64,000 nt of DNA from Mytilus trossulus (GCF_036588685.1 NC_086380.1:4588001-4652000), one strand, 5' to 3'. Numbered from the stretch's first letter, positions 8,946 to 48,335 are shown. Notes: a model not told the origin generated them from the letters alone. Translations and numbers: made by a program.

Positions 8946-9480
8946 ATAAAATTGAGAATGGAAATGGGGAATGTGTCAAAGAGACAACAACTCGACCAAA
9001 TAAAAAACAACAACAGAAGGTCACCAACAGGTCTTCAATGTAGCGAGAAATTCCCGCACCCGGAGGCGTCCTTCAGCTGGACCCTTAACAAATATATACT
9101 AGTTCAGTGATAATGAACGCCATACTAATTTCCAAATTGTACACAAGAAACTAATATAAAAATAATACAAGACTAACAAAGGCCAGAGGCTCCTGACTTG
9201 GGACAGGCGCAAAAATGCGGCGGGGTTAAACATGTTTGTGAGATCTCAACCCTCCCCCTATACCTCTAACCAATGTAGAAAAATAAACGCATAACGATAC
9301 GCACATTAAAATTCAGTTCAAGAGAAGTCCGAGTCTGATGTCAGAAGATGTAACCAAAGAAAATAAACAAAATGACAATAATACATAAATAACAACAGAC
9401 TACTAGCAGTTAACTGACATGCCAGCTCCAGACTTCAATTAAACTGACTGAAAGATTATGATTTCATCATATGAACATCA
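8946..9480 (-). mobile_element. PLE 3' UTR fragment
   Basis: Near-identical to 48336-48770 plus 49430-49545, which is the 3' UTR of the RT remnant at 49650-51013. Confidence 0.65.
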
Positions 9481-9792: not shown

Positions 9793-9949
9793 TGTCGGGA
9801 ATACGTGAATTTAGTAAGAAAACGTTGCATGTTCTAATATGTGTAATCGATCTATAGAAGCCAAAGTATACAAGTGACACGTCACAAAGTCTTGACGTTA
9901 CAAGACCTAAGTGACGTTCCCGCGTTGTGTTCGCGTCGTATTTACAACA
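9793..9949 (-). repeat. 3' LTR of BEL/Pao element (157 bp)
   Basis: Direct repeat of 16118-16277; 6 substitutions and 2 small indels by manual alignment. Confidence 0.95.
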
Positions 9950-11366
9950 TTCTGGGGGCCGCAAAAAGTTAAAATTCTATATACAAACAATCTCAAATGT
10001 GAATAAGAAATTTCAAATTAAAAATATTTACGCTTAAAATTAAAGTCTCTGTATAGAAAATAATTACTGTCTCTGTATAGTGGTATTAAAATTTGACACT
10101 TGAACATTTTTAAATAACGATTCACAGTTCATATAAAAAGGGTAATTAACAGTTCACATTCGTTCTTTATCATCTCGATTTGAAGGCAGATTCAACCAAT
10201 TACGGATTCTTTCACCAGCCTTTACACTTGCTTGTCGTCTTGGACGAATGTCTTGTTTGGCACTTTGTTCACATGTATCATCTTTTTTCGTATTACATGT
10301 AATTTCGAGCGGATATAGTTTCACTATCGGCCATGTAGTTTCGGTATTCTTCATCCTTATTTTAGCGGCACGCACAAATCCATCGTTTCCTCGAAAAAGT
10401 TCAGTTACAAGGGCCATTTTCCAATTGATTCTCGTTGACTCATCGTGCACAAGAACAACGTCGCCAACTTTAATTTGTTCATTGTTATTTCCATATGCTT
10501 TGTGGTATTCCCTCAATGATGTTACATAGTAATTTTTCCATCTTGTCCAACGTGTCTGAATAATTCACTTTGTCGTTCATTTTGTTTATTTAGTGACGAA
10601 CAGTCCATAAACACGGGTTCACTGTTGTCCTGTTCTGAATGTGGATAGGATAACGATCTAATTTTTCTACCACATAATAGGTGCGATAAGTAAGTGGTTC
10701 ACTGTCGTTGATATTTGTGGAGGTGTATGCTAGTAGTCTGTCGTTCATTACACTTTCTACTTCCGTAACAATAGTGCACAAGGTTTGAAAATCGACCAAT
10801 GATTTTCGAGAACATTTTTTAACGTAGTTTTTGTTACTGCTATTAGTCTCTCCCAAAATCCACCATACCAGGGAGCACGATGCGGTATAAATCTCCACTG
10901 TACACCTAAATCTGCGATTTTATCTTGTACATTTTGCGATTCAAATATTCGTTTGATTTCTTTTGAAGCTGCAACAAAGGTCAGCGCATTGTCCGTTATA
11001 ACAACTTTCGGTGTAGACCTGCGACTTGTGAAACGAGGAAAAGCTTGCATAAAACATTCTGCTGATAAATTCGATAAAACCTCTAAATGTTCTCCTCTTG
11101 TTGACGCACATGTAAATAAGCACACGTATGCCTTAGTTATTTTATTGTGTTCATCCCTTACATGTAGTGCTCCTGTAAAGTCAATACCGGTCACAGTAAA
11201 TGGCGGTGCATCTTGACGTCGTGCTTTGGGTAAAGGCGGCGGATCCGGAGCCTTATACGAAGTTTCATTAACTTTAAGACATGCAGTACATTTACGTAAA
11301 ATCTTATTAACAAATTGACGAATACACGATATCCAAAAGTTTTGACGTAGATGCGATATGGTACTA

Positions 11367-11929
11367 TAGTCGCCGTCAGCTGAAATTCGTAGCGGTTATC
11401 GGTAAAAATAATCTAAACTATCAACCACGTTCACTCGAGATATAGTTTTTCACATTCCATTCATAAATCGCAAAAAGAAAAACCACTACTGACCTACCTT
11501 TTAAGTGATTGCACTGTGATAATCCTGACCTTCACATTTTCCAAGACTATTTTGAATGGTGGAATCCGCCATTGTTTTTTTTCCGGAAGTGTTCCCCTGG
11601 AGTTAAATTTCATAACATTTGCATAAAGCGCGGGAAACCGTATCACATCAATGAAAAGAACATTTCAGGAAACTGCGTAAATGACGAATTTCATATGTAA
11701 ACAAATGATCCTCATAGAAACGAAGATGGCGGAATTACAATGGAAAACATTCTGGAAAATGTGAAGGTCAGGATTATTACAGTGCGATCACTTAAAAGGT
11801 AGGTCAGTAGTGGTTTTTCTTTTCGCGATTTATGAATGAAATGAGAAAAACTATATCTCGAGAGAACGCGGTTGATAGTTAAGATTATTTCTACCGATAA
11901 CCGCTCCGAATTTCAGCTGACGGCGACTA
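11367..11929. mobile_element. Foldback MITE (563 bp, ~180-210 bp TIRs, TA TSD) inserted in the BEL integrase
   Basis: tagtcgccgtcagctgaaattcg...cgaatttcagctgacggcgacta, flanked by TA (11365-66, 11930-31). Removing it restores the frame HSGTSSTISHLRQNFW of the integrase Zn finger. Confidence 0.9.
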
Positions 11930-14900
11930 TACTAGTTCCTGAGTGTAGTACATGCTCGTGTGCATCTCGTACTATCAACATTGTTAGCTGTGTGTTTGTT
12001 GGTAACAAAATAGGAAATTTGGCGGACTCGGGAATCGGTGCATTTCTCTACATCGGATAATGTTGTTATGATCCAGAAATAAATTCAACTGACGAATTCT
12101 TGATACATTCTTTGTACGATCTCCTTTCACTAGCGTGTCGTATTCCTCGGGGTAGTTTAATATTTGGAATGACCTACTCCAATTTTGTGCTGACTTATGT
12201 ATTTCTTTCACATTACATGAACCAACTATTCTCTCTTCCTTTGATAATCTACAGTTTTGAATAAAACGTCATGCATATGCCGTCGTTCGTAATAGTTTCT
12301 TGTATGAAGAAAATCTGTCAATTTCCACTAAATCGTGAATTCCTGTCGTTCTATTCTCAAGTGTTGGTTGCTGGACATCAATGTTATCAGTCAATGTAGA
12401 TAGTACCGAGTTAACTTCAATCGTATGAACCGGGCGTTTCTATTATCCATGACGGACCATGCCTCCATAGCATGCTTTCGGTATATTGAGTGGCCGTTAT
12501 TCCGCGTGTAAGTATGTCTGCTGGATTTTGATCTGTTGGACAGTATCGTCATCTATAGGGTCTTGTTAACTCGTTAATTTCAGCTACACTGTTGCAATAA
12601 ATCGTTTTAGAGGTTTTTTCGACATCAGCCAATTCAATACTATTTGACTGTCAGACCATAATTCTACGTTGCTAATGTTTATAAACATGGATAAAATGTG
12701 TTGTGTAAGTCTCGCGCCATTTACAGCTGCAATTAAGTCTAACTGCGGTAGTGTTAAACTTTTAACCGGAGCTACTCTTGTTTTCGCCATAATCAATTTG
12801 GATTCATTCCCTTTGCAAAGATAGGCTATGTAAGCTTTCAAGCTGACATCAGAAAATACTTGTAGTGTTAACGATATGGTTTCGTTTTGTGTACCGGTAA
12901 AATAACGTCTCGGAAAAGCAGTATTGATTCTCTTTTGAATGTGTGTTGCGATGTCAATCCATGTTTCGCATAACTTTGTAGGTAAGATCTGATCCCATTC
13001 ATAGTTTTCGCGCCAAAGTTCTTGGAGAAATAATTTTGCTCTGATTGTGATTGGACTCAAGAGGCCTAATGGGTCATATATTTTCGACGATTGATTCAAT
13101 ATCACTCGTTTAGTGATATCTGTTTCCGCTGTTAAGTGAATTTCAGTTTGTGCAAAACAAAGTTCGTCTTTTTGTACATCCCAACGCATTCCTAGTACTT
13201 TCGGTTTGGTGTCCTTGTCAAGTATGTTATCAGCGCATGCTATTGTCCGTAAAAGCTGACTGTTCGATGTCCACGATCGGAGATTAAATCCACCTTTTGT
13301 AATAAATTCTCTGGCTTCTTTGTAAAACTGTACGGCTTTGTTCTCGTTAGTTACACTCGATATAATATTATCAACATATATGTCCTGTTCAATCATGTTA
13401 GCTCTGTCACTATTCTTTCCTTGAGTCTGCACATGTTTGAGTAGTGTTGCGCTCGGAATAAAGGGGGAGCATGTAGCGCCAAAAAGAACAGACTTAAAAC
13501 GATATGTTACCAATTTACTGTTTATGTTTTCTGCATCAGACATTCAAAAAAATCTTGTCGCATCTCTGTCATGTTCGTGTAAACCTACGTGTTAGAATGC
13601 CTTTACGATATCAGTTGAAATTGCGATGGCGTTTAATCGGAAACGCAATAATAGTTTTGTCAAGTCATTAAGAACGGGTGTTGTATTCATCAGACGGTCG
13701 TTTAAGCTCGGGTACTGATTAGATTGTCTACAACTACAATTGTAAACAATACGAATTGGTGTGGTTATCGAATCTTTCCTAACTGGGTGGTGCGGTATAT
13801 AATGTACTGTCGTTACATTCCTCATCATCGATTTTTTCAATGAAACCTTTAAGCTCTTGGTTCTTTATAATATCGTCATACGTTTTCAACATACCTGGTT
13901 CCCTGTCTAGCCTTCTTATTACAGATTTGGTTCTTCGTTTTGCAATACTAAAATTTGTCGGAAGTTGATCATGTTCTCGTTTCCATGGTAATTTTGCGAT
14001 ATATTGTCCGCCTTGAAATTCAATGCAAGTGTTCTGATATGTTTTTAAGTAATCTTCATTTTCTTGATCTAATTCTTTAGAGTTTATTCCCATTGATTCT
14101 AAGTTCCAGAATGATGCGATGTCGAACTCCTCGGTCTTATGCGAAATAAGCATTTGTAGTACTGACAGTGAGTATGTAGCCGACTCTTTGAACGGACCGG
14201 ATAAAAGGTAACCTAGCTTCGATTTAACAGCAGAAGGTCCATCTCCGCGAATGATTTTGTCTTCAATAAACTGCCAATAGTAATCTGCTCCTATCAATAC
14301 TGTAATTTCAAACATACTTTCGTCGGTAATCGGATGCGCCAAATTCAAGCCTTGTAAATAAATGTAGTTGTTTTTCGAGTCTAGTTTTCGGACATGATTA
14401 TGTAACGGAACGGCTATTTTCGGTACAACAAGAACCTCAATACGTATTTTCTGTCTCGTTTCTGTTTCTACCAATAAAGTACACTTACCTAAGTGTTGAA
14501 TGTTATTATCTGTGTCTCCGAAACAGGCCAGCTGTATTGTTTCTGTGCTGTAGATTTCAAGTTTTAGTTTTATAGCAAGATCTTCTGGTATGAACGAACG
14601 TTGTGCACCTTCATCAAAAAATATATTTGCGTCTAAAACTGTACTGTCGGACAAAACGGGTGCAACTGCTCTTTTCAGTAATACGCTTGAATGAGTCTTA
14701 TGAGAAGTGTGAAGAACTTTTGTGTCGTCTTCTGATTTTCCCTATTTATCATTAACAATGCTGACATTAACAGATTGTGATGATTTGGTAGAATGTGTTT
14801 TCGTGTTTTCCGTTTTCGTGACAAAAAGCGTATTGATGCATGGGAGCTTTACTTTGGACATGTGTACTTCTTTTATCGACCATTGACTCATTACATAAGC

Positions 14901-16102
14901 TAGTATGATGTTTTTTTCTTGCAATGACGGCATACATGTTTAGAGTTACATTCACTGGTACGGTGCGTACCGAGACAATTAAAGCACAGATTGCTGCGTT
15001 TTACAATATTCTTTCGTTTTTGTGTTTCTGTAATTCGTGTACAGTTCGTTGGTGCGTGAATTTCTTCACAGAATATACATGGCCTCGCGGTCAGAAAACG
15101 TTGGTTACTTTTTACATTAACGACTCTTCTTTGCGTATATTATTCCTTTCCGTAACTGGAAGATTTCGTTTCAGTGAGAAACGTACATGTAGGCGTTGCA
15201 TAACTTTGTGGGATACCGTAATCCTGACCTGCTTCGATAATATTAATCTCGTTCTGAATAGCTTTACGTAAATCGGATAAAATCCATGTGTTTGATCCAT
15301 AATCTCGTGCTTGATGTTGCCTTACTTCTCCGGGAAGCTTGCTCAAAATTATTGGGACTAGTAATGTGCCGTTAGTGTATTGCGATTGGCCTAATGCTTC
15401 CAATCCGCGTACGGATTCCTCTATGTGATCATAAAATAGGTGTACACTGGGTAAATTTGGTAGTGTAATGTCTAGCAAAGCTTTCATGTGTGCATGCGGG
15501 ATCTTACTAGATTGTCCGTATCGTTCTTTTAATACGTTAATTGCCTCCTTATAATTAGCATTTGTCAATGCGATTCCATCAACTGTATGCGAAGCTTCAC
15601 CTCCGAGTTGTGATTTAAATATAATTGAATTTCTGAATATCTGGTAGACTCGAGTTCATATGTACTGCTGATTCGAAAGAATCCCAGATGGTGCGATATA
15701 ACTCTGTTGCTGATTTTCAATACATGAAGTTGAAAACAAAAGCTGGTGCTTCATAATTTAATGTTTGATATGATGAAGTAGACTGCTGATTTTTATGATT
15801 TATCGAACTGTATTAACCCTGTATGAATATACGCAAGTGTTTTACTTTAGTTTCTAAACCTAAAGTATACTCATCTGTGTTGAGAATTTCTTCTTCAATA
15901 TCCTCTGCATCGATTGCACTTATAATTTGTTGATTCAAATCTTCTAAAAGGTTCTTCTTCTGTTCCACACTTTCTAATGTTACTTAAAGATCTACCCTGG
16001 CTAACTCCGCTTCGTTTTTCAAATCGTCGATTTTCCGTAAATGTCTTGTAACTACACTTTTTTTTCGCTTTCCTAATCGATTTCAGCTTATTCAAATCCA
16101 TT

Positions 16103-16115
16103 GGGCACGGCACCA
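16103..16115 (-). promoter_or_regulatory. Primer-binding site, tRNA-His-like
   Basis: TGGTGCCGTGCCC lies 2 nt after the 5' LTR and is complementary to the tRNA-His 3' end (..TCACGGCACCA) over the first 10 nt. Confidence 0.75.
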
Positions 16116-16117
16116 AA

Positions 16118-16277
16118 TGTCGGGAATACGTAAATTAAGTAAGAAAACGTTCCATGTTCTTATGTGTAATCGATCTATAAAAGCCAAAGTATACAAGTGA
16201 CACGCCACAAAGTCTTGACGTTACACTATAAGACCTAAGTGACGTTCCCGCGTTGTGTTCGCGCCGTATTTACAACA
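16118..16277 (-). repeat. 5' LTR of BEL/Pao element (160 bp)
   Basis: Direct repeat of 9793-9949; followed on the - strand by the PBS. Confidence 0.95.
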
Positions 16278-16730
16278 TATATGGTCATTGGCAGTCTTTG
16301 GATGTCTACTAGATAGTTGTTAAATGGCGTCTTAACTAAAATACACACGAAACAATAATACATATCGTTGAGTCCATGCCTTGTAAATTGTATATTTTTA
16401 TACTTTTATAATTGAACATACATTTTAAAATGTTATAATAGGAGAATTTGAGTCATATCAGTGAACATTAACATTGACAGCCAATGCACTTTAAAGTTCA
16501 TCTTAACTTTGTATTTCTATAAATCACAGATATTTGAATAAAGTAAAAATCTCAACTCAAACTAGTTGACGATTCCTTCCAAGCAGCTATTTATTTGAGA
16601 ATGATCCTTGATCCTCACTCGGTATATAGAGTAAAAATTAAAATAACTAAAACACCGAATCCCTATAAAAAAATTCAAAACTGTTACGGAAAATTCCTTA
16701 TCATATGGCAAAATCAAAATCTCAATTAGA

Positions 16731-16833
16731 GTCTGGCGCAAATACAAAATTTCAATCCCGGTAAATCTAATGAATTTATTTGCAACCACGGTATCGATGC
16801 AACTGCTGATAAAGGTTGTAATCCCCCAGGGTA
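16731..16833 (+). mobile_element. Degenerate retrozyme (family B) fragment: HHR 3' strand, terminus and pseudoknot remnant
   Basis: gtctggcg-aatacaaaatttcaatcccgg..atgaatttatt-tgcaaccac-ggtatcgatgcaactgctg...ccccagggt; aligns with the reverse complements of 18239-18290 and 19212-19269. Confidence 0.5.
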
Positions 16834-17260: not shown

Positions 17261-18238
17261 TGGATGAAAATCCAGATAACAGGCACATATGTGGATTAAT
17301 GGGATGGGCCAAGGCTCGAATGATTAAAAGAACAAGTCGGCAAGAAGAGGAGCACAGTTGGTTTAAATGGGAATTTCAATCGTTTGTTAAAAACAAATCT
17401 CCAAACGTTTCAAATATGAAGTCATTCAAGACAAGTATCATTTTGATAATGTCCTTATAAGAGTTTTTTTAATCAAAGTATTTTCTATTTATCCCTCTGT
17501 ATGAGTAATGATTTTGGCTACCTTTTTTCATCTTGTGTTTGCTAGTTTCCTCCTTTGTAGTTCATTGTCATTTAGTATGAATAAAACTTAATAAACTATT
17601 ACAATAACGTGGTTTTTGTCTTGAGTACAAATTTAATGATGAGTTTATTAAATGACGGTCCCTGTAAGTCAGTTTTCAATTTTCTATTTTTTTGGGGTAA
17701 AATACGGCGGCTGGTTTTTTTTTTTTACATTGTTCTCTGTTTTTTTCTCTGTTTGGTCATGCTGCTATCTGTCTTTCTTGAATTATTTATTTTTTGTTGT
17801 CTTCTTTGTGTCCTACTGTTTTCCAAACTCCATCATTGAAAATAAATTGATCGTTTCAACTGAATCATTTTCAATATTTTAACATGATATCAAGGCAAAA
17901 ACGTGCTCATAGCGTACACTTCCTTTTATAATGTGATATTCTTTCCTGTAGGGATGCTAGCGCTTTAGAAAAACAAACAATCAAAGAAAGACTTAACATA
18001 ATGTACGAAATTAAATAATGTTTTCGGACGACGGTTCAAACAGTTGAGTTACTAGAAAAAAAACGCGATGCTTAACAATATTACACTTTTAAGACAACAT
18101 GATTAGAATCCACTTTTATGAATAGAATTTCCATGTGGAGCCCGAAAGTGAAAGTGTCATATTAACATAAAGTAAAAAGACATGTGTCAACTCAATTTGT
18201 CAGGTTGATTAACGTAGGTACTTGTGGGTTGTTATTCT

Positions 18239-18450
18239 AAATAAACTCATCATATATACCTTGATTAAAATTCTATACGCCTGACTCTCATTTCGTCTAC
18301 AAGAGACTCATTAGTGAAACTCGAAGAAAAGGCAATATTAATGGTCAAATAAAAGGCCCAATAAAGTTAGAAGTTGACGAGCATTAAGGACCTAACATTT
18401 CATAAAGGTTTTGTCAAATATGGCAAAGGTAATGTATTCCTTTGGTATAT
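18239..18450 (-). mobile_element. Degenerate retrozyme (family B) with mutated HHR
   Basis: Reverse complement of 18277-18322 is ctaatgag-tctcttgtagac-gaaa-tgagagtc-aggcg. The downstream gagcatt.aggacc..aaat..ggc.aaggtaat block is shared with the 18923 array. Confidence 0.55.
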
Positions 18451-18956
18451 TTTAAAGGACATTTATACATTATGATAGTCTTAACGAAGTATCTTTTTAC
18501 AAATTCCGCAAAACAAAATATTCAAAATTAGCTCCATAATGTATATACATTCGTTCTAGATAGTTTTAGTAAACTTAGTTAAAAACTATAGGAGAAGAAT
18601 ATTCCAAAACATGTTTTTGTTGATAATATTGCAAATAAAGGCAACAGTAGTATACCGGTGTTCAAAAGTCCTATAAGATCCTATATCGATAGAGAGAAAA
18701 CAAATGGGGGTTTCAAATTAAAACCAAAAGAAACACATGAACTACAAAAGTTTAAAACGAAAGGAACAACAAGAACCATGAAGTGCAACAAAAAACAAAC
18801 GTCAACATACATAAAAGCGAACTATTTTACAACTGTCATATTCCTGACAAAAATAGACTAAGTTCCGTATCAGGAAAAAACGTACTGTACAATTTTACAA
18901 TCCTTCAAACCAACTAGCAAGAAATAGTTATCAAAGGTACCAGAATTATAATTTAA

Positions 18957-19005
18957 TACACCAGACGCGCGTTCCGTCTACATAAGACTAATCAGTGACG
19001 CTCAG
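18957..19005 (-). ncRNA. Type I hammerhead ribozyme, core-mutated copy
   Basis: gcgtca-CTGATTA-gtct(tatgt)agac-GGAA-cgcgcg-TC-tggtgt: G8 and one GAAA base are altered, so probably inactive. Confidence 0.7.
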
Positions 19006-19309
19006 ATCAAAATAGTTATAAAGCCAAACAAGTACAAGGTTGAAGAGTACTGAGGACCCGAAATTCCAAAAATTTGTGCCAAATACGGCTAAGGTATTCT
19101 ATTCCTGGGATACGAAAATCCATAATTTTTCGAAAATTAATCTTTTTGTCAACTGGAAATTTATTAAAAGGACCATACAATTGTTTTCATATCAACAACG
19201 AAGTGCTGACTACTGGGCTGGTGATACCCTCGGTGACGAAACGTCCACCAGTAGTGGCATCGACCCAGTAATTGAATAGTTATAAAAGGAACCAGGATTA
19301 TAATTTAAT

Positions 19310-19357
19310 ATACAATACGCGCGTTTCGTCTACATAAGACTCATCAGTGACGCTCAG
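19310..19357 (-). ncRNA. Type I hammerhead ribozyme with intact catalytic core
   Basis: gcgtca-CTGATGA-gtct(tatgt)agac-GAAA-cgcgcg-TA|ttgta: CUGAUGA and GAAA cores, 4-bp stem II, palindromic minimal stem III (acgcgcgt). The 3' strand of stem I is partly mismatched. Confidence 0.8.
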
Positions 19358-22300
19358 TTCAAAATAGTTATAAAGCCAAATAAGTACAAAAATGAAGAGC
19401 ATTGAGGACCCGAAATTATAAAAAGTTGTGCCAAATACGGCTGAGGTAATCTATTCTTTGGTTTTTTCGAAAGTTTTGTCAGCAGATTAATTAAAATGAC
19501 CTATAATTGATATTCATGTCAATATCGACGTGCCGACTACTGGGCTGGTGATACCCTAGGGGACGAAGCACCCAACAGCAGTGGCATCGACCCAGTGGTG
19601 TTAATTGTTATCAAAGGTACCAGGATTATAAAGTCAGATTTTATGCCGAAAAGAATAAGCACAACGACCCAGACTTTAAATTTAGGTATTGTGCATAAAT
19701 TGATGCACTTAGACGCATGTCAAAAATTAGGTTCTACTAAAGATTTCCAAAAGAATGACATACGTACGTAATTCGACGTAAGGATCTAATAGGATTGATT
19801 ATTGCCAACCATCGAATTGATAAAATACCGCGCTTGAGTTTAAACAAAATATTTCAAGACTTTTAAAATCACAGCCTGAAATTTTCGTCCATATAATATT
19901 TTCTTATCATGAACCAAATGATAGAAATTTTTATTTATCACGTAGTTTTCCAGATTGACGCCTTTATTTTACTGACAGATTACGTATTAATACACGTAAT
20001 CCATACCTATCATGCGTACTGTTCGAGTTATCTTTCGTGGTTTGATTATCTTCTTTGGAGATGAAAGCCCCATTATACTGTTATTTTGTCTTTCTTTATA
20101 GTGTATTAATCTTTTAATTATATGAGTTGCGGCGAAAATATTGAGAATGATATGTTTCTGACAATTTCAAAAATGTCGAAAGCAGAATTTGCCAGAATCT
20201 GTCTCTTCATAAAGTTATACAATTCAGATAAAATATATCGCTTCCTTTTAAGGTTTATTACCCCTGTTGTAGCCATGTAATTACGAAATTTTAAAACTCT
20301 AATAGTATCAAAACAGAAACGATAATGAATATTAGAGATGGACCATTGTGTCCATCTACTAAGGTGAAACAAATTGCAAAGCATCATTATTCATTGTGTC
20401 ATTGCATTTCATGGAAAAACAGGACTTTGTGGCAAATAAAACCAAATTTTTGTAGAAAATCAACAGACTTTAATAAAGATAATTTTGTTATGAAAATCAG
20501 AACATAGATTACTTACTTGTTTTTCTATGATGTGCTAGCGTTTATTGTTAACAGAAAGTCTTTAACAAACTTTAAAAACCCAAAATACTTTGTGCTGAGT
20601 CACGAAAGTCGAGCGCACCCCAAAAGGTGTACTTGAATTGATTCATATTTATATTTGATTTCACTAATATCTAAATTTATAAACTTGTTTAATGGAAATA
20701 AGTGCTAGCATTGCATGCAATAATCCCCCATCTATCAGGCACCGAATTGCCAAATGTGAGAGTACAAGGGGAAAGGCTGTTAATTTTTTATAAAGTTTCC
20801 ATATGTTTAGCATTGAGTTAACACAAGAGAACATAATACATAATTTATAAACAACAGTATTTTTCATTTATTATAAAATGTACTCATAAAGAAATTCCTA
20901 TATATGTTTTTTTTTATAATTTAGGTGTGTTCGATTAGGGATTGTTCTGTAATAATTTGTTTAACGGTAATGATATCGGAGTCCAAATACAAAAGATATT
21001 TCCAGGGAATATATGTGATATCACTTGAGAAAAACTAACTAACTATAAGGGTGTGTTATACATTATATTGATAAACAACTAAAACGGGGTCATCGAATTA
21101 ATTTTAATGAGTAAATCATTAACGAAAATGTGTACAGTAAGTAACAACATAATATAGTAATATTTCGTTGACAGATGCGGATAGAGGATGCATCTTATAA
21201 TGACCTAGGTAGATATAAAGTAACAGACAAAGTATAACTAGCAAAATACTGGTCCATATAAGAGATAGAAACTGTGAAACTGATCAATCACGCCACATCT
21301 TTTTTTATATGATGACAAAAGTTACACGTATAAAATTAAGAGACTTAATGGATCTTAAACTTTGTATCCCCAAATCTGTACAAAAGCATTTTAGAAGAAG
21401 TCATACATTTAATTCTGCCATTCTACTTTCAGAAACCTTTCTGAATTCTATTACCTAACTGAGTACAGAGAATTACGCCTTTAACCAGAAGTTTCATTGA
21501 AAAATATTGACTAAATGAGCACCAGAAATATTATTTCGTGATATAATTCCACAAATCTGTACTTTTCATAGACAGTATCATTGTGTGACTTATCAAAAGT
21601 ATGATCACCTACATTTTATTTTGCGAATCATATTTTCAATAAACCGTACATTTTCTACTGGCATTGGCGTCTTGAAAGCAAGGCGAGGCTTTAACTGCCG
21701 AGATTCAAATCATTTGTGTTACCAGAAATATAACTAAAGTTACGCTACTGTCGATTGATTGACAGTTTTTTGCTAAAAGTCCAGTGGTAAATATTTCATG
21801 CTTAATTCACTTGTAGAGAGCGTGACATTATACATAAAACAGGCATCGGATTTAACGTCCCTATTCTGAACAGACGGGACTGCGTACGTTTACATCTGCC
21901 ACATCTAAACGGAACCCCAACTTTGGCAATGGTCTAACTGCCGATCGTAACAAGACCAATAGTGACCATATAATATTTATATTCCCTTGATAACCGTTGA
22001 GAGTTTACTGTTGGGACGAGCGCGCGACCAAAGAGACAATTATGAATCTGGAAGATACATATACATGAACGTTTATTAATCAGAACATTTGCAACAAGAA
22101 TGTGTGGCCTTAAGACACCGTGCCCTTTCACATTATAATATTTCTATGTTCAGTGCACCACTTAATATGGGTCAAACTCATAGTTAGTATATGATTTTAA
22201 AGGTTTTATCTTTTTTGACATGAAAGAACGAACGGAAGGATGCACAGACCAGTAATTATAATTTTCACATGTTAATATAAGTTGGTCATAAAACTAAAAA

Positions 22301-24408: not shown

Positions 24409-26295
24409 GTATGATATACATTTATTACTTCATAATTCATATACCGCACACGAGCAGTGCATTTGAAGTTTGCAAGACTCCGTAGTTGTTTATGGCATTA
24501 ATTTGTTTAAGCTATCAGTCTAAGATACTAGAATGCATTAAAGGGGTATAGGTAAGTTAGGGGTATATGTAAGTTACAGGGCAAATCGAAACGTGCAAGA
24601 AAATACTTATATGCAAATGACTTTCGTAGATTTACTAAACTATGGTACGTCAATTGAAAAATGATTGCTCTATTTCTCTATTTTATAATTTTGAAATTAT
24701 CACAGGTACAAATTCTTCCAATTTTTACTATCATTTGATAGTTTATAATCTATCGCAGTTACTGGTAATATATATATACAGAGAAGAAAGAAAAAAATAT
24801 TGTCGTAACTGTTAAGATTTGAGTATAATCATTTTGGAAGTAATTTAAGCATATATTACATTTTTCAGCTTACAAACATAAGCCTTTGTTATTTACGATA
24901 CACAAGAGACACCAAAAACTTAATGTAAAATTCAAAACAAGTTCTTTAACATGAATCCAAAAATCAATGCTTACAATGGATATATAAGAACATAATTTAA
25001 TGTAACTTTTTAACATAAAAAAGGACTAAGTTCGTACTATGTTCATTCTTTTTAATTGATAAATATCAAAGGTCGACCATACAATTGGTATTGAACAGCC
25101 GCTTTACATTTAATGGGTTTATATGTTAATGTACACAACAGGTTAATATTATTACTACAACTGTCTACATATTAAACTTTAAATACTCCAAAACTTAAAA
25201 GCATGAATTGGTATACAATTTTTTTTTATTGTTTACATAAACTTTATTGAAGTGAAAACTTTTAATTTTAATTGTCTTCTGCTGATCAATTTTATCTTAA
25301 AGAAATCTGATACCCATTCTAATCAGTTTGAATTGTGGGTTTTGTCAATCAAGTATGAATTTCTTTCATGTCGTATTAGTACATAAATAACTATTTGGAT
25401 AATACCAAAAAACAATATTACCACTGTTTTTTCTTCTTGCTTTTTGCTTATTTTCTCATGCGATACATTTTGAATCGGGTTTTTTTAAATAGTTCATTAT
25501 TCATGTTTTCCAAATGATACTGTAAGCACCTTTGAGAGTGCTTCGATTGGAATAGGATATCCTGCTTTTATGAATTTTTATTCTCTTTTTGCTGGTTTTC
25601 AAACTGCTAACAATCTCTTAGATGATTTACCTTAAATTGGTAATAATTAGTGGTACCAACCGATAGGAATTTAGATAAACTCATCAATAAAATTATGTAC
25701 GCCAGACGTTTTGTCTACAAGTACAAGACTCATAAGTGAAGTTCGAATAAATGTTGTTAAAAAGGCCAGATAGAAATACGAAGTTAAAGACAAGCTCTGT
25801 GGGTATACCATCGAAATCAAATCCTGGTAACATATATAAAAAACGTTTTAAAAAACTAATGTGGCAAACACGGCATTACTCTTAATATTTTATGTTTTAA
25901 TTAAATGTTAACGACTGAATGATACATCCTGAGTACTTAATTCAATCTATATTTTTATGGTATCACAATAATATATTATAACATTTCTTAATCCACGTTA
26001 CCGTTACATTAAAATTTGTGATTAAATCTTTCTTTTTAATTTTAACTGTACATAACAAAAAACAGTCACGACTGAAAAACGAGTATTGTCTTTCGAGAAG
26101 TTAATTCAATAGAAAGCTGTTTTCTTTTGTTTTTTTTTAAATTGTAGAAATTTTAAATCATTCATAGTCACAAATAATGAATTCAAAATGTTTAAATTAA
26201 AGGGTTTTGTTTAATTGGAAGTTTGTACGAATGTCTTATCCTTATTTATAAAATGAAAATAAGAACATGTGGTATGATTGCCAACGAATCCACTT

Positions 26296-26425: not shown

Positions 26426-28231
26426 GAAAATTAATTGAGGGTATATGATTGATAAGGTATGAGCATGGATGATAAAATAAAAGTTTTAAAAATAAAAGTG
26501 GGAATTCATCTAGAAAGAAAAAAATTGTGGTCATTTGGCGGACTTATGTCCATTTGCACAATATTCCAAAGCTTGCATTTCCTGTCATGGGTTCTTTGAT
26601 AAAGGTCTGATGCTAACGAGGAATCTATTGAACTAAAGGTTCCAAGTGGTAAGGTTGTGGTCATCACAAGTTACTAGTTCGGTATTTAGCCTGAATGATT
26701 TCCTAATCCACAACGGTCACTAATAACAAATAGAGACATTACTTTTGTCATAAACTGTTAAGACTTGACTATAATTATGTTTGAAGTAATATAAGCATAC
26801 ACACAGTTATTTTTGTGATTTTACTTTTTAAAAACATAAACTTTTGTTTTTGACGATCTGAAAGAGACTCCAGAAACTTAAAGTAAATACAAATCTTTTT
26901 ACATGAATCAAAAAATCATCCATACAATAGAAACATAAAGAGCATACTTTGATATAAACTTTTTAATATAAAAAAAAAAGGACTAAATTCGTACTGCATT
27001 TCTTCTTTTTAATTGATAAATATCAAAGGTCGACCATACAATTGGTATTGAACAGCCGCTTTTCATTTAATGAGTTTATATGTTTATGTACACAACAGGT
27101 CAATATTATTACTACAACTGTCTACATATTAAACTTTAAATACTCCAAAACTTAAAAGCACGAAATTGGTATACAAAAATTGTTATTGTTTACACAAACT
27201 TTATTGAAGTGAAAACTTTTAATTCTAACTGTCTTCTGGTGATCAATATTATCTTAATGAAATCTGATACCCATTCAAATCAGTTGTATTGTGGGTTTTG
27301 GCAATCACGTATAAATTTATTTCATGTCGTTACTATTTGGATAATACGTAAACAACATTACCATTGCTTTTTCTTATTGTTTCTCTCGTGAATTAGTCTA
27401 CGAACGTAAAAAAATATCTGCTTTTTTTTAGTGTATCTGTGATAATTCTGCAATCAGCTGAGATCGGTTTCATTTTGAATGTTAGTTCTCTGTTAGGTAA
27501 TATGTCCATGATGACATTGCACCTTTCAATACCGCACACAATTCATAACCGTTTGAAATTCAATTTTTTTTTAATAAATCATTTTTGAAAGCCAAAGTAT
27601 TCACAAATGAGTAAATGATTAAAAGCTTGAAATAGTGTAAGAAAATCGGTCTTTTGTAGAGTATAAAGTAAGGGAATGCGTTATGATTCCCAATGAGACA
27701 AATGCATATTTCATGTTGCTTCAGAAATAAACATAAATATTGGTTATTGTTCTTCTTCAAATGCTGTCTATTTGAGAGAGGAACGAAAGATACCAGATAC
27801 CAGAGGGACATCCCCTTTTATTTAATTGATATTTGGAGTACAAACTGGTAACGAATAGTTGTTACAAACCGAAAGATTTTAAATATACTCATTGAAATTG
27901 TTTGTGACGTTCGAATAAAATAAAAGTTAAATGACCACAAAAAACACGAAGTTTAAGACAAGCCCTGTGGGTGTATAGTCGAAAATTTTAAAAAATACCA
28001 TAAAAAAAACGCTTCAAAAAACTTGGGTGGTAATCACTGCATTACTTTTAAAATCTTATGTTTTAATTATTAGTTTACTTAATAATACTCCTGAATCCTT
28101 AATTCAATTGATATTTTAATGATATCACAATAATTTAGTATAACATTTCTTTACCATAGCATTTAGATTTTTTGATGAGATCTTTTGAATGTTTCACTGT
28201 AGAAATAAACAATCTTAACTAAAAAACGAGA

Positions 28232-28296
28232 ATCTTATGTAGACGAAAAGCGCGTCTGGCGTATTAAATTATAATCTTGATACCTTTGATAACTAT
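28232..28296 (+). mobile_element. 5'-truncated retrozyme insertion (3' half of HHR plus terminus)
   Basis: tcttatgtagacgaaaagcgcgtctggcgtattaaattataatcttgatacctttgataactat; absent from the paralogous site (~26080-26095) in duplicate A. Confidence 0.8.
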
Positions 28297-31445: not shown

Positions 31446-32168
31446 GTAATTATAACTATCGATGTTCAAATTCAAGTGTCTTCAATTTTGTTATGGTATA
31501 AGTAACTGAGACGTAGAACTGCATACCGATTTTTTGCAAATATAGATTATTAGGGTTTTTAGATAATTATCATCAGTTACAAACAAGCTTAATCGATGTA
31601 TTGTAACTGTTTATTCATCTCATGCACCCGCTGGTTTTTAACGGGAACCCGTTTGGTTATTCCTTCAACTGACTGACATGAGCAGCATTGAGGGACCTAA
31701 AGTTTAACTTGCAATTTATCTTAAAAATGTAATGTTCGTTGTTACAAATGAAAATTGTATGAGGTTTTTTAAGATATATATGTGTTCAGAAAGGGACTTT
31801 ATGCATATGAGAGTATACAACAGAGGACATCAATAATATTCAGTTTGATCTTTATTTAGCAAATAATTGAAAACCAGAAATATTACTTCTCTTAAATGTA
31901 TTGAAGGACTTATCTACCAGCCTGATCAGAAATTGCAATACAAGCGTCGTCAAAAATCAGTTCGTCGGTTTTCTCTTTTGACTGGTTTCACATGTTGTCA
32001 AACCGGGGCCTTTTTTTAGCTTACTTTACGGTATGTGTTTTGCTTATTGTTGAAAACCGTACGGTAACCTATAATTTCTTATATCCACTTCATTTCTTTA
32101 TTTCATATAATTTTCATTGAGACTTGTATATGTATCAATTAGGTGTATTCTTCGTATTTTAATTTCAG

Positions 32169-34112
32169 GTTGGACGTATTTGTCAGTGTGTAGTGACGTC
32201 ATTTACTCCAGTAGCTGTGTTCAGATTCTGTAGGACTTTATTTAGGTGTAGAGGAACTGCGTCCCTAGCGGCAATATTAATTTCATTTTCATTACATATC
32301 TCGGTCCTTGGAACACATACATTGGTCAATAGTTTTATTTCTCCATTCTTATTTCTTTCATTAGACATCATTTTGCAATATTTATTAAAACCTCTGGACA
32401 TTACAGATTTTGCAAACGACAAAAGTTTAAACGAAAGCAGTTCGTCACGGTACAATCATACAGAAAATGGAAGCGCTCCAATACAATGTGCCAAGCGCGA
32501 TATCAATAGTAATTTAAAGACTCCGAAAAATCCATTGAATAGTGCAGCACCTCAAGAGCAAAAACAATCAACAGAAGATGGTAAAATAGTTAAAGCAGCA
32601 AAAACAAAGAAAGGCAAACTGAAACAGAACCATTTAACAACCAGACACTTTACATTGGATATAGATTTAATTGTATTAAGTCTATCTGGTTTTGTTTGTG
32701 CAATAATTTGTTACATGAGGCCTGACACTATCATTTTTCTTATCGTAATTGGCGTCTCATTTCTATTTACATATCGAGATAAAGTATCAATTAAAAAAGT
32801 CGTATATTTAACTGGCACAGTTGGATCAGGTTTTGCAACGGGTTTAACAGTTGGGGGTTTACTCGACTGGTACACATATGGTGTGATGTTTATTTCGCCA
32901 GCTCAGTGGTTGAAGTTGAATGTAGCTTCACATGTTCCCGCTGTATTGTATGGAAGCAATAGTCCATATCAGTATATTTTAGACATTTTTGCCAGCTGCA
33001 ATTCCGAGTTGTGCTTTAACATTTTCTGTCTCGCCGCTTTATTAACTATGATGACTCAAACTGAGTTTATTGACTCAGGGGATCAAAAGTCAACTTCTAG
33101 TCTATTAATAACTCTGTCATTTATGCTTATTATTTATTCAGTAATCGCGCATAAGGAATTAAGATTTGTTCATAACGTTTTAATCATTGTTGAAATTTTA
33201 GCAGCGTACGCAATTCACGGGGCTTTGCAATTTATAAACAGTTTGTTAAAATTTACCAAAGATAAAATCAGAATCGTTGTAATTGTCTTCACGTTAACCG
33301 TAGGTCTCAATACTTACATGAATTTTCCTTCATATGGCGAAGAAACCATCCTGCCATGGAAAACGGTTACACCAGCCGATTCTTCAGATATCAACCAATG
33401 CTTGTTCTTTATAAGTGAACAAAACAATGTAACAGGAGTATTCGTTGACAATTCCATTTACACGATTGCGGGATTTACCATTTTGAATCACGACGTGCCA
33501 TTGCTTACTTTAATTCACCATGAATACCACGAATATAGGAGCGAAGGGTATATACCACGGACTGATCTCAGTTATAAGACACCGCGAAACTTATATGTCA
33601 TCAACCGATACTCTGATATCATCGATGTGACTAATATTCACTATTTATCGAAACGTTTACTAGAAAGTCAAGAATATAATTATGTTGTTGTCCCCAACAA
33701 GAGAGTCCCGTCTTTTAGTCAACTTGGTTTCAATAAAGCCCCGTTTAATGCAGGAAGATATTCCGTCTTACAGAGATTATTGACGCCGATCGAATCTTCA
33801 AAATTGTCAATCGCTGGAAAAAATATGCCACTTGGTAAGAACTCTACCATTATGGAATATGAAGCTAGTTGGTTGTACACAGCAGGATTATATTCGAAGG
33901 CTATAGAACGTTTAGAAAATGCTATAGAACTGAACAATTCAAGAGTACGCCCATTCCAATTGCTTGCTTCATCGTATGCAAATAAAGCTGACTTAACAAA
34001 TGCAAAGGCCACAGAAGACAAATGCATTCTAGGCCATGGTCGAACTGCATGTCGGAAACCCCAGCCAAGAATAGTGATTCACGAGGACTATAAACAGTAC
34101 AGTGTTAATTAA
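32169..34112 (+). CDS. GT22 mannosyltransferase, coding exon 3 (multi-TM body, luminal domain, TPR-like C-terminus); spliced product ~785 aa
   Basis: Acceptor aatttcag|GTT is in frame with the 639-aa ORF. Motifs: YMRPD, LLDWYTYG...WLKLNV, SPYQY, HKELRF; multiple TM helices. Total CDS 217+197+1944 = 2358 nt. Confidence 0.85.
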   Translation, partial: VGRICQCVVTSFTPVAVFRFCRTLFRCRGTASLAAILISFSLHISVLGTHTLVNSFISPFLFLSLDIILQYLLKPLDITDFANDKSLNESSSSRYNHTENGSAPIQCAKRDINSNLKTPKNPLNSAAPQEQKQSTEDGKIVKAAKTKKGKLKQNHLTTRHFTLDIDLIVLSLSGFVCAIICYMRPDTIIFLIVIGVSFLFTYRDKVSIKKVVYLTGTVGSGFATGLTVGGLLDWYTYGVMFISPAQWLKLNVASHVPAVLYGSNSPYQYILDIFASCNSELCFNIFCLAALLTMMTQTEFIDSGDQKSTSSLLITLSFMLIIYSVIAHKELRFVHNVLIIVEILAAYAIHGALQFINSLLKFTKDKIRIVVIVFTLTVGLNTYMNFPSYGEETILPWKTVTPADSSDINQCLFFISEQNNVTGVFVDNSIYTIAGFTILNHDVPLLTLIHHEYHEYRSEGYIPRTDLSYKTPRNLYVINRYSDIIDVTNIHYLSKRLLESQEYNYVVVPNKRVPSFSQLGFNKAPFNAGRYSVLQRLLTPIESSKLSIAGKNMPLGKNSTIMEYEASWLYTAGLYSKAIERLENAIELNNSRVRPFQLLASSYANKADLTNAKATEDKCILGHGRTACRKPQPRIVIHEDYKQYSVN

Positions 34113-35324
34113 AAAAATATATTTAACAAAACATAAGACTCTTAAAGTCTGTTCGCTACTGATAAGTAAACAACAGTAACCAAAATTTATAATTTTTCAA
34201 AAGACAGTATACCATTAACATGCTGTGCGTCTATTGTGAATGACTACATTCGCCTGCTTTATGTTTAGAAAAAAATGTTGGTTTTTTTTTTTTGGGGGGG
34301 GGGGGTTAAAGTAATGCATTCAAATAGTCAGAAGTTTTGACAAACGTAGTTTAAAGAATTCATATAAGTATAGGTTTTTTAACAAGGAGCTATTGTATGG
34401 ATAAAATGTATTTTTTTCTAAAATTTTAACTATAAAATCAAAACTCTTATATACATGTATCAAAATTGCCGAAGATTTTAATTTGTTCTTCTAATTTTTA
34501 CCCTGTGAGTGACGCAAATACACAGAACAGCTACCACACTTTATTAGAGTTATGCTTTTTATACGGTAATAAACTTAAAGTACAAAATAAGGAGAAAAGT
34601 TGGAAATATTACTATCAAATATATGTGAGTGATTTCTCAAGACAGTCGTTCCACATCCACAATCACCATCAAGCATAGCAAAATGCATTAGAATACTAAA
34701 CGTAACATTTTAGTGACGTTACTATAAACTCCCATACTCTGTTTTGTGTGGTGAATATACATGGGTTGTACAGTTTTTAGGCTGGTGTAGGGAAATTGTG
34801 TGCCATTAAATGGTTTGCTTTCATTGTTTAAAAAGAAAAATCTATTCTTTTCTATTCAATCAGTCAAGTTTATATTTTTTTTTTATTATTATTGGTTTTT
34901 TTTATCACTTTTAAAACTGGTTTATATCTGATATCTTTTTTTCAATATTTAACTTATACTTGGCAAAGGACTGAACAGATTCTTATTTAAGGAATGACAG
35001 TTATATTTTTCTGTCTATGAATAAAAAGTAAAATCACAAAAATACTGAACTCAGAGGAAAATCAATTTGGAAAGTCCATAATCACATGGCAAAATCAAAA
35101 AACAAAACGCATCAAAAACGAATGGACAAAGAACTGTCATATTCCTGACTTGGTACAGGCATTTTCAAATGTAGAAAATGGTGGATTAAACCTGGTTCTA
35201 TAGCGCTAACCCTCTCACTTTAATAACAGTTTCATCAAATTCCGTTACATTTACATGATGCGTTAAATAAACAGTCACAATCAATAAAATAGTCAAAATA
35301 TGGGAACATCAGTCATCATCGTAT

Positions 35325-36120
35325 AACAATTTAACAGGACACAACAACATCTACTATCTACGAACACATGGATTGATTTGAGTGTCTGACGTCAGAAAAA
35401 TTATATACGTCACATAAATTTGTCGTTCAATGTGCATACAATAGTTATCAAAAGTACCTGGATTATAAACAATTCTAAATTTTACATAGGCAATGAGCGC
35501 AGACAGGGTTAAAAAATCAAAAGTATGTAAGAATAAATTACAGAAATCGAACTAGTCCAAAAGTTATACATAGAATTTATGAGAATCCAAAACTTTTAAA
35601 AGGAACAATTTAACAGGACACAAAAACCTATCCACGAACACATGGATCTACTTGAGTGTCCGACGTCAGAAAAATTATATACGTCACATAAATTTGTCGC
35701 TCAATGTGCATACAAACAATTTTAAAATTTACATAGGCAATGCACGCATACAGGGTTAAAAAATCAAAAGTATGTAAGAATAAATTACAGAAATAGACCG
35801 AGATTCAAACTAGTCCAAAAATTATACATAGAATATATGAGAATCCAAAACTTTTTAAAGGGAACAATTTAACAGGACACAATAACATCTACTGTCTAAG
35901 AACACATGGATTGATTTGAGTGTCTGACGTTAGAAAAATTATATACGTCACATAAATTTGTTGTTCAATGTGCATACAAACAATTTAAAAAAAAAAATGT
36001 CATAGGCAATGTACGCATACAGAGTTAAAAAATCAAAAGTATGTAAGAATAAATTACAGAAATAGACCGAGATTCAAACTAGTTCAAAAGTTATACATAG
36101 AATTTATGAGAATCCAAAAA
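35325..36120 (+). repeat. ~260-280-bp tandem repeat x3 inside a PLE-type 3' segment; inverted copy at 38484-38781
   Basis: Units start aacaatttaacaggacac at ~35325, ~35603 and ~35863. Confidence 0.85.
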
Positions 36121-37730: not shown

Positions 37731-38207
37731 ACAGTGTGGTGCGCACTGAATAACCCGCGTAGCGTGTTATCTAGAAGTGTGCACCACATTTTTGAGTTTA
37801 TTCCGAATAGACAGAAAAAATATTACATTCATTCCTTATAATTTAATTCTAAATTCCATCTTTTTAAGGAGTCAATCACGAAAAAAACGTTGATGACCTC
37901 ATCACGGCCACATGACAAAATTATGTCTATGGGCTGATAGACAAAAAACTTTCAGTCAATCAGAAGACGTGTTACATCCAAATCAAATTATTCTTTATCG
38001 TTGCCATTTTCCATGTCAGCTTTAAATGTTTAAGCAATCAAAATGCTAAAATTTAAATTTATTTATATCTTTGTATATTGTTACGTTTTGAGTGAGAACA
38101 TAAAAAAAATGAAATGCATATTGTTTTTGTTGTACTGTTGATTATATTTTACAAAATTAATTATTTTGCATCAATTAATATAATTGGGGCATTCAAAGTG
38201 TCTATGT

Positions 38208-38480
38208 AAAAGAGGGACGAAAGACACCAAAGGGACAGTCAAACTCGTAAATCTAAAACAAACTGACAACGCCATGGCTAAAAATGAAAAAGACAAACAG
38301 AAAAACAATAGTACACATGACACAACATAGAAAACTAAAGAATAAACAACACGAACCCCACCAAAAACTAGGGGTGATCTCAGGTGCTCCGGTGGGGTAA
38401 GCAGATCCTGCTCCACATGCGGCACCCGTCGTGTTGCTTATGTGATCACAAATCCGGCAAACAGTCCAACTCGGTAAGTC
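38208..38480 (-). mobile_element. PLE 3' UTR fragment (same family as 808-1200)
   Basis: Near-identical sequence to 808-1075. Confidence 0.65.
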
Positions 38481-38844
38481 AAATTGAACGACAAATTTAT
38501 GTGACGTATATAATTTTTCTGACGTCAGACACTCAAATCAATCCATGTGTTCGTAGATAGGTTTTTGTGTCCTGTTAAATTGTTCCCTCTAAAAAGTTTT
38601 GGATTCTCATAAATTCTATGTATAACTTTTGGACTAGTTTGAATCTTGGTCTATTTCTGTAATTATTCTTACATACTTTTGATTTATTAACCCTGTATGC
38701 GTTCATTGCCTATGTAAATTTTAAAATTGTTTATAATCCTGGTACTTTTGAACTTTTGTATGCACATTGAACGACAAATTTTCAGTTGTTACATTTTTTT
38801 TTTAATTCAAGAACGGTGTTATTTTGTTTGGAATTCTTGATTGT

Positions 38845-48314: not shown

Positions 48315-48335
48315 CTGAAACAAATATAGATATAA

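What the first reader, a model, noticed from the sequence alone, without database searches (positions are those of the whole stretch)
19212..19596. Conserved pseudoknot lying just 3' of a fixed retrozyme insertion terminus: candidate RT-recruitment / template-boundary element
Seen: each retrozyme unit has, on the hammerhead strand, ACUGGG-UC-GAUGCC-ACU(A/G)-CUGGU-G[GAC-loop-GUC]-..GAG-GGUAUC-ACCAG-CCCAGU (19212-19269; 19539-19596, more mutated). The pairings are an enclosing stem ACUGGG/CCCAGU and two crossing stems GAUGCC/GGUAUC and CUGGU/ACCAG. The G-U wobble works only on the HHR strand. Five independent insertions from two families end at the same relative point, about 35-45 nt after the HHR cleavage site and a few nt before this structure. 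Family A ends at ...GATAACTAT(T) at 18923, 28296 and 35440; family B ends at ...GATGAGTTTAT at ~18240 and ~25675. The remnant at 16731-16833 shows the same pseudoknot following the family B terminus. Established: retrozymes are thought to be mobilised by PLE RTs, the closest relatives of telomerase RT. Inference: cDNA synthesis starts internally, not at the ribozyme-cleaved end, at a position set by the pseudoknot, loosely analogous to telomerase RNA. I cannot confirm that this structure is unreported.
Basis: partly seen in the sequence, partly recalled or inferred. Interest (0 to 1): 0.8.

Follow-up and report, generated by a model that had tools for sequence, protein, structure and literature searches.

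The report
Shared Naiad-retrozyme RNA start signal
A small folded RNA element, a bulged stem-loop rather than a pseudoknot, sits a few bases past the fixed insertion end of both mussel ribozyme-circle repeats and ribozyme-free Naiad jumping genes, and probably tells the Naiad copying enzyme where to start, which would name the enzyme that spreads these circles.

Summary
The motif is real (19212-19269, 19539-19596, hammerhead strand; 13,672 exact core matches in this genome, 0 in control). The fixed 3' end holds: 46 of 73 ends chosen without regard to the end lie within 14 nt before it, none at the hammerhead cut. The pseudoknot is not supported: outer stems covary, the crossing stem never does and breaks in distant relatives; a nested bulged stem-loop fits better. 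New: the same element begins two hammerhead-free autonomous Naiad Penelope-like families here. For one it is the only sequence shared with the retrozymes, and Naiad copies end at the same spacing (36 of 42). It also starts 13 of 22 published Naiad consensi I inspected (bivalves, hemichordates, a fish). Best reading (0.7): a Naiad reverse-transcriptase binding and start-site element, captured by retrozymes. Binding is inferred, not shown. Internal initiation by a Penelope-like RT and a Penelope origin of retrozymes are published; I found neither this element nor the Naiad link in seven literature searches or Rfam. The scan held no look-alike sequence, only a loosely related note.

The parts
19212..19269 (-). 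Conserved bulged stem-loop, copy 1: P1 (19269-19263 with 19218-19212), 1x4 internal loop, P2 (19261-19256 with 19228-19223), NCUG bulge, near-invariant core CUGGUGGA...UCCCCGAG with bulged U, variable apical hairpin. This copy has two core substitutions.
   Evidence: matches the start of the Naiad unit L477 at 83% over 60 nt, E 9e-12
19539..19596 (-). Same element, copy 2, more mutated
   Evidence: (73 bits)
19191..19210 (-). Extra 8-bp hairpin, often with a UUCG loop, just 3' of P1; present in the retrozyme families, not in the two Naiad families
   Evidence: folds; stem changes across families in alignment A1
19316..19353 (-). Type I hammerhead of unit 1; intact core, GUA instead of the family's GUC at the cut (19316/19315)
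   Evidence: Rfam hammerhead hit E 0.0025, below gathering score
18964..19001 (-). Type I hammerhead of unit 2, two core substitutions
   Evidence: Hammerhead_1, E 0.13
18922..18930 (-). Fixed 3' insertion end of the array, 5 nt before where P1 would begin
18922..19631 (-). Whole insertion: two ~355-bp family A non-LTR retrozyme units, 5'-truncated 35 nt before P1 of copy 2
28230..28296 (+). 5'-truncated family A copy ending at -7; empty paralogous site near 26080
35440..35468 (-). About 27-nt family A end fragment inserted in the 269-bp repeat; no hammerhead, no target-site duplication; ends at -6
18234..18460 (-). 5'-truncated family B copy ending at the family B terminus
25675..26086 (-). 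Old B-like copy; terminus by eye only
16731..16833 (+). Family B remnant with only the 5' part of the element; ends inside it
38207..38485 (-). 3' end of a Naiad (L477 family), ending at -5 relative to its own copy of the element; a second such end at 811-1201 (-6)
35022..35315 (-). 3' end of a Naiad (L272 family), ending at -5; further ends at 51755 (-6), 1346 (-8), 5700 (-7)

Best explanation
The element is the cis-acting RNA signal of Naiad-clade Penelope-like retrotransposons. In a tandem read-through or circular RNA it lies directly 3' of the last templated base. The Naiad protein (N-terminal GIY-YIG nuclease plus RT) binds the near-invariant bulged core. P1 and P2 hold the single-stranded U/A-rich stretch 4-8 nt upstream at the active site, a nicked AT-rich target primes there, and RT runs round the circle or tandem until it falls off. 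That gives a fixed 3' end, scattered 5' ends and head-to-tail arrays. Mussel retrozymes are parasites that join this signal to an unrelated type I hammerhead: the ribozyme makes the circle, the Naiad signal gets it copied. Shown: structure of P1/P2, sharing with Naiads, fixed spacing, strand. Inferred: protein binding, priming, rolling-circle copying, direction of capture.
For: (1) 46 of 73 motif-selected retrozyme 3' ends at -14..0, 36 at -8..-4; binomial p about 3e-44; none within 10 nt of its family's hammerhead cut. (2) Spacing to P1 is constant across four families whose cut-to-P1 distance differs, 39-53 nt. (3) Two Naiad families without a hammerhead core (pattern scans) carry the element at their tandem junction and end at -8..+1 in 15 of 20 and 21 of 22 loci. 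(4) The only match between four retrozyme families and the 3,370-bp L477 unit is this 64-71-nt stretch, 80-88% identical, E 1e-12 to 1e-18. (5) Nested model on 13 tool-held copies: 97.4% of cells paired, 4 pairs with two-sided change, 0 of 500 shuffles reach the covariation score, slid controls 35-51% paired; G-U pairs recur on the hammerhead strand. (6) Hand count on 12 published Naiad consensi (PMC8557442 File S5): P1 78 of 82 and P2 67 of 72 positions pair although the strands differ. (7) Hammerhead-free, ORF-free arrays of 131 bp x7 and 140 bp x2 hold only the element and short flanks and end at the same terminus; one begins with a partial unit that already has the new junction. (8) One RNA run: reads about 4-5:1 in the direction expected for the hammerhead strand if the library is stranded; mixed flanks leave the element at -6 and -4 (197 and 133 reads); no pile-up of ends. 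(9) A retrozyme-like repeat with a different hammerhead and an oyster-type version of the element (L452). (10) Precedent: a Poseidon RT starts inside its RNA, 85-92 nt past the hammerhead cut, needs RNA to about 55 nt further 3', and does not need cleavage (PMC11167929).
Against: No binding or priming assay. 27 of 73 ends are off the peak; on recheck 3 resume and end in it, 24 do not; later damage is likely but unshown. The core pairs are almost invariant (6 of 8 never vary), so covariation cannot prove them, and the register of the CU/AG pair is ambiguous (my drawn register has p about 0.02; G29-C48 and G30-C47 have p 0.98-0.99). Alignment A2 has 13 related rows and most two-sided changes come from 2 of them. 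A third, TGA-containing Naiad (L097) has only a looser variant that the model misses. 4 of 22 inspected consensi show nothing recognisable. Hammerhead-bearing Poseidon/Neptune elements of this genome were not examined as alternative partners. The two start sites and 30-40-nt tail of the Poseidon element have no second peak here.
Confidence: 0.7

Rival explanations
1. One reading: CUGGU pairs with ACCAG across P2, as the working fold or as an alternative state in mussel retrozymes.
For: 5 of 5 pairs possible in families A, B, D, E and in Naiad_Tgra. Among 138 distinct copies from this genome the crossing scores 91% paired against 81% (P1) and 85% (P2), though those loci were picked for changes in P2, include 5'-truncated copies, and the 5' arm of the crossing is fixed by the search pattern. 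Hand count in 12 consensi is 63%, above about 45% by chance.
Against: No two-sided change; 86% of cells paired against 96-98% for the other helices. Broken in 11 of 12 published consensi, 2 of 5 pairs in the four oyster-type ones (38 of 60 overall). Opening the nested core costs 5-9 kcal/mol for a duplex worth -5.1 (families A, B), -1.4 (L477 Naiad) or +1.0 (L452) before loop penalties. A 4-nt linker would have to span 11 stacked pairs (inference).
Confidence: 0.08
2. The element makes an RNA end rather than binding RT: a new self-cleaving ribozyme or a nuclease/termination signal cuts 4-8 nt upstream, and RT starts at that free 3' end as in LINEs, with tandems arising by template jumps.
For: Would give hammerhead-free Naiads a processing signal; the order of stems loosely recalls HDV-like ribozymes, which cut at their 5' side (recalled); 20 of 70 retrozyme 5' ends lie at -15..+14.
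Against: No pile-up of read ends, and depth continues across the site. 0 of 15 motif-bearing L477-family copies begin at -8..0; all carry 43 to over 2,000 nt of upstream 3' sequence (read). Full ~350-nt mussel circles were cloned (PMC7229834). HDV-defining P1.1, P4 and J4/2 are absent by eye; no Rfam hit.
Confidence: 0.12
3. The element is a promoter, translation or RNP-assembly signal at the Naiad 5' end, and the fixed end is set by the U/A tract alone through microhomology with AT-rich targets.
For: It lies at the 5' end of the Naiad unit, upstream of the first Met; ends fall in T/A runs; the P1-P2 junction resembles a tRNA B box in mussels (consensus recalled).
Against: The units are AT-rich throughout yet only the tract next to P1 is used. 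The B-box-like string is lost in oyster, hemichordate and fish Naiads while pairing is kept. The core lies in different reading frames in different Naiads. Non-coding retrozymes kept only this part.
Confidence: 0.1

Closest known systems
Internal initiation element of Poseidon_Ac (Frangieh et al. 2024, PMC11167929; main text parts 1-2 read, figures not seen)
   Same: Penelope-like RT starts inside the RNA, downstream of the hammerhead cut; RNA 3' of the start site is required; genomic ends match start sites; AT-rich targets.
   Different: Other clade (C-terminal nuclease); described as an AC-rich stem loop inside the ORF with two start sites; no conserved motif or non-autonomous partner described in the text I read; the core words were not in its three text supplements.
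Non-LTR retrozymes of Mytilus (Cervera and de la Pena 2020, PMC7229834; parts 2-4 of 6 read, supplement unreadable)
   Same: Type I hammerhead in 350-390-bp tandem repeats, expressed as circles; PLEs proposed as mobilisers.
   Different: No partner named, no terminus mapped and no second conserved element in the parts read.
Retrozymes as non-autonomous PLE derivatives (Li, Clavereau, Pollet 2026, bioRxiv 10.64898/2026.07.22.740005; parts 1-3 of 5 read)
   Same: Retrozymes share sequence with PLE termini and are proposed to hijack PLE enzymes.
   Different: Xenopus pLTR homology; no mollusc; zero hits for stem, hairpin, pseudoknot or Mytilus; mechanism left open. Here the partner lacks a hammerhead and shares only about 70 nt.
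Naiad elements (Craig et al. 2021, PMC8557442; passages and supplement searches)
   Same: The partner families have the Naiad layout, and the element starts many of the paper's own consensi.
   Different: The passages seen describe no 5' RNA structure and note the lack of hammerheads, raising the idea that hammerheads parasitise PLEs.
LINE/SINE shared 3' stem-loops, hepadnaviral epsilon, telomerase RNA (all recalled, not tested)
   Same: A bulged stem-loop bound by an RT selects the template; a parasite borrows it.
   Different: Here the signal lies beyond the first copied base, so it is inherited only after RT goes round a circle or tandem; no pseudoknot or boundary role is supported.

Membership tests
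Non-LTR retrozyme (host repeat) | Type I hammerhead in each unit | tested here: met
   core pattern in every unit of young arrays; weak Rfam hits in the window copies
Non-LTR retrozyme (host repeat) | Head-to-tail repeats of 150-450 bp without an ORF | tested here: met
   349-364-bp units; no ORF of 120 aa or more at 18922-19631
Non-LTR retrozyme (host repeat) | Expressed on the hammerhead strand | tested here: inconclusive
   one RNA run, 6,144 reads, about 4-5:1 strand bias; family level; library strandedness assumed
Non-LTR retrozyme (host repeat) | Self-cleavage and circular RNA | not testable with these tools
   wrap-around joints also occur in tandem DNA; shown for the mussel family in PMC7229834
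Naiad PLE (partner) | N-terminal GIY-YIG, C-terminal RT in one ORF | tested here: met
   L272: GIY-YIG at 174-264 of 1,047 aa above cut-off; L477: RVT_1 at 645-854, E 2e-4, below cut-off; each domain of the other by eye
Naiad PLE (partner) | CxC and DKA motifs | tested here: met
   by eye in the translations; motifs named in PMC8557442
Naiad PLE (partner) | No canonical hammerhead; 5'-truncated and tandem copies | tested here: met
   no core pattern hit in either unit; tandem 4,276- and 3,370-bp units
   0 of 5 pairs with two-sided change, 86% paired; 38 of 60 by hand in 12 consensi
HDV-like ribozyme | P1.1, P4 and J4/2 with catalytic C | tested here: not met
   absent by eye against a recalled descriptor; no Rfam hit to E 10
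Poseidon-type internal initiation signal | Insertion end internal to the RNA and 3' of the hammerhead cut | tested here: met
Poseidon-type internal initiation signal | Two start sites 30-40 nt apart (tail) | tested here: not met
   one peak at -8..-4
Poseidon-type internal initiation signal | RNA 3' of the start site needed for RT binding | not testable with these tools
   needs an in vitro assay
Telomerase RNA template-boundary element | Lies 5' of the template and stops copying (recalled) | tested here: not met
   the element lies 3' of the first copied base

The most novel reading that the evidence does not exclude
One roughly 60-nt RNA fold, kept from cnidarians to fish, is the loading and start-site signal of Naiad RTs and is sufficient on its own: any circular RNA that carries it, down to about 130 nt, is copied rolling-circle fashion into tandem genomic arrays. 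Hammerhead circles in more than one animal lineage have captured it. It would be a defined RNA partner for a PLE RT, a group sister to telomerase RT, and the missing link between viroid-like circles and their genomic copies.
Probability: 0.4. Interest if true: 0.9.

Novelty: new variant of a known kind. Interest (0 to 1): 0.77.

Why it matters
Which enzyme spreads animal retrozymes, and how a Penelope-like RT chooses its template and start site, are both left open in the papers I read. A 60-nt element shared by an intact, recently active Naiad (1,000-aa ORF, copies mostly 98-99% identical) and over ten thousand retrozyme units gives a named enzyme, a minimal RNA and a predicted start site. It also suggests why Naiads thrive without hammerheads and supports the idea that hammerheads ride on PLEs.

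Tried and rejected
Rfam: 0 hits at gathering score in the window; to E 10 only hammerheads and two chance sRNA hits, none on the motif. Searches were biased towards termini by their queries and were not used for end counts. The first Naiad followed (L097 family) shares no significant sequence with the retrozymes. Collection scans for the core were mostly chance: P1 and P2 also present in 5 of 118 scored metagenome loci (4 AT-rich retrozyme copies, 1 GC-rich chance), 0 of 6 viral, 2 of 122 prokaryote-genome loci (both AT-rich, eukaryote-like contigs) (one search had wrongly counted three loci of this genome). No Naiad relative in viral contigs. The run search listed no holder on record as RNA. 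Protein coding as the cause of core invariance: rejected, frames differ. tRNA B box: rejected by eye. Further loop variants seen, which may mark a fourth Naiad family, were not examined. The published consensi were counted by hand, not by a tool. Not-in-print claim rests on searches; Repbase/Dfam, subscription papers, figures, the supplement of PMC7229834 and the preprint's supplements were not seen and may bear on it.

Full report
Setting. The window lies on a large contig of a 1.30-Gb genome. The finding sits in a two-unit array (18922-19631, minus strand) of a ~355-bp repeat with a type I hammerhead, which fits the mussel non-LTR retrozymes of PMC7229834. The organism label is an inference from that match. 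Positions below count from the first base of the enclosing stem P1; -5 means the match ends 5 nt before it.

The motif is real. The exact core CTGCTGGTGGA-(2-16 nt)-TCCCCGAG occurs 13,672 times in the genome against 0 for the reversed control. Rfam has no match. At least four retrozyme families here carry it, with different hammerheads and bodies.

The fixed end is real and follows the motif. I took 83 retrozyme loci chosen only by the core pattern. Nine ran off the fetched DNA and one was a duplicate. Of 73 usable 3' ends, 46 lie at -14..0 and 36 at -8..-4 (p about 3e-44). None is within 10 nt of its family's hammerhead cut, which lies at -47, -53, -39 or -44. Of the 27 off-peak ends, 3 resume and finish in the peak and 24 do not. 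5' ends are scattered (10 of 70 at -14..0), with some excess near the motif (20 of 70 at -15..+14) that selection for the motif may partly explain. In one RNA run, mixed flanking sequence leaves the element at -6 and -4 (197 and 133 reads), depth continues across the site, and no place has piled-up ends.

It is probably not a pseudoknot. The predicted fold is nested: P1, a 1x4 internal loop, P2, a bulge, two G-C pairs, a bulged U and an apical hairpin. It forms as its own domain in a circular monomer, with the terminus tract unpaired. On 13 tool-held copies the nested model pairs 97.4% of cells with 4 two-sided changes, all in P1, P2 and the hairpin. Energy favours the nested core. Against this: the core pairs hardly vary, so they are not proven by covariation; the CU/AG register is ambiguous; and in 138 copies from this genome, a biased set, the crossing scores best. 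A transient pairing in mussel retrozymes is not excluded.

The element belongs to Naiads. Searching the consensus file of PMC8557442 gave 11 hits for TCCCCGAG, 10 of them within the first 200 nt of Naiad consensi. I saw the starts of 22 of 54 Naiad consensi. Thirteen have the core with at most one change (nine bivalve, three hemichordate, one fish), a coral has a near variant, four have looser look-alikes, four nothing I could recognise. By hand on 12 with a clear register, P1 pairs at 78 of 82 positions, P2 at 67 of 72 and the crossing at 38 of 60, complete in 1 of 12. In this genome two intact Naiad families carry it at the tandem junction: L272 (4,276-bp unit, 1,047-aa frame, with an extra hairpin inserted in the bulge) and L477 (3,370 bp, 1,000 aa). 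Neither has a hammerhead core. Their copies end at -8..+1 in 15 of 20 and 21 of 22 loci; two of the five L272 exceptions are the mini-arrays below. Six truncated copies in the window itself end at -5 to -8. The L477 version has the retrozyme's P1 and a compensated P2, and it is the only sequence that unit shares with four retrozyme families. A third Naiad with four in-frame TGA codons has a fixed end and only a looser variant.

Hints of sufficiency. L275 (seven 131-bp units) and L276 (two 140-bp units) consist of the L272-type element, about 25-30 nt downstream and about 22 nt of terminus. They have no hammerhead or ORF and end at -5 and -6 by eye; L276 starts with a partial unit that already includes the new junction. 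That is what copying round a small circle would give, but two loci cannot exclude DNA-level expansion. All 15 motif-bearing L477-family copies have 43 to over 2,000 nt of upstream 3' sequence and none starts at the terminus, which argues against a unit-length linear template. L452, an AT-rich contig end in a bacterial bin, joins a different hammerhead to an oyster-type element in an apparent repeat, so the pairing may not be limited to mussels.

Mechanism. Most likely (0.7) the Naiad protein binds the core, and the stems set priming 4-8 nt upstream on a tandem or circular RNA; retrozymes add a hammerhead to make circles. The steps from binding onward are inferred, by analogy with Poseidon_Ac, whose RT starts internally, needs downstream RNA and ignores hammerhead cleavage (PMC11167929). 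Rivals: an end-making ribozyme or signal (0.12), a promoter or assembly element with microhomology fixing the end (0.10), the pseudoknot (0.08).

Novelty. Internal initiation (2024) and a PLE origin of retrozymes (PMC7229834 as proposal; 2026 preprint for Xenopus) are in print. Seven searches and passages of a review (PMC7761336) showed no description of this element, of a Naiad partner or of the mapped terminus. Repeat databases, figures and several supplements were not seen. I class it as a new variant of a known kind, RT-recruiting RNA elements, and score interest 0.77 because it turns two open questions into one defined experiment.

Noticed in passing
L097:4402-7410; window 49428-50943, 8946-9480, 5785-6162, 48334-48771: A very young Naiad family (copies about 99% identical, fixed 3' end) with four in-frame TGA codons, like the selenoprotein Naiads listed for clams and spiders in PMC8557442; it has a variant of the element resembling Naiad_Scon. 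SECIS not sought.
   Followed up: partly
L275:930-1860; L276:900-1240: Hammerhead-free 131- and 140-bp arrays of the Naiad element ending at the Naiad terminus.
   Followed up: partly
L328:400-1500; L401:1400-3200: Arrays of 70-74-bp units made of the element alone, inside retrozyme copies; perhaps RT jumping back at the structure.
   Followed up: no
L401; L452: Retrozyme-like eukaryotic DNA inside two bacterial genome bins, probably host contamination; L452 has a distinct hammerhead 79 nt before an oyster-type element.
   Followed up: partly
G000 matches listed: Apical loop variants not matching the families studied; possibly a fourth Naiad family.
   Followed up: no
L337; L478: A family D copy and a Naiad copy each inserted into nearly the same site of a family A retrozyme unit; possible target preference.
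   Followed up: no
L006:1-1130: An inverted, frameshifted L477-family Naiad fragment abuts the 5' end of a long retrozyme array.
   Followed up: partly
window 42137-46472: LTR retrotransposon-like element with 99% identical 114-bp direct repeats and long ORFs (Gypsy-like by eye); a hammerhead-like core at 44364-44396 on its antisense strand is probably chance.
   Followed up: no
window 9793-16278: Degraded LTR element with 92% identical direct repeats, minus-strand ORFs BEL/Pao-like by eye.
   Followed up: no
window 32163-34112, 36570-37766, 47890-48423: ORFs of 649, 398 and 177 aa that look by eye like a membrane glycosyltransferase, a LINE C-terminal part and a C1q domain; labels recalled, untested.
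   Followed up: no
L365, L375, L385, L397, L402, L407, L426, L427, L432: Repeated core matches in Vicinamibacterales bins lie in one multicopy element and lack P1/P2; chance.
   Followed up: partly
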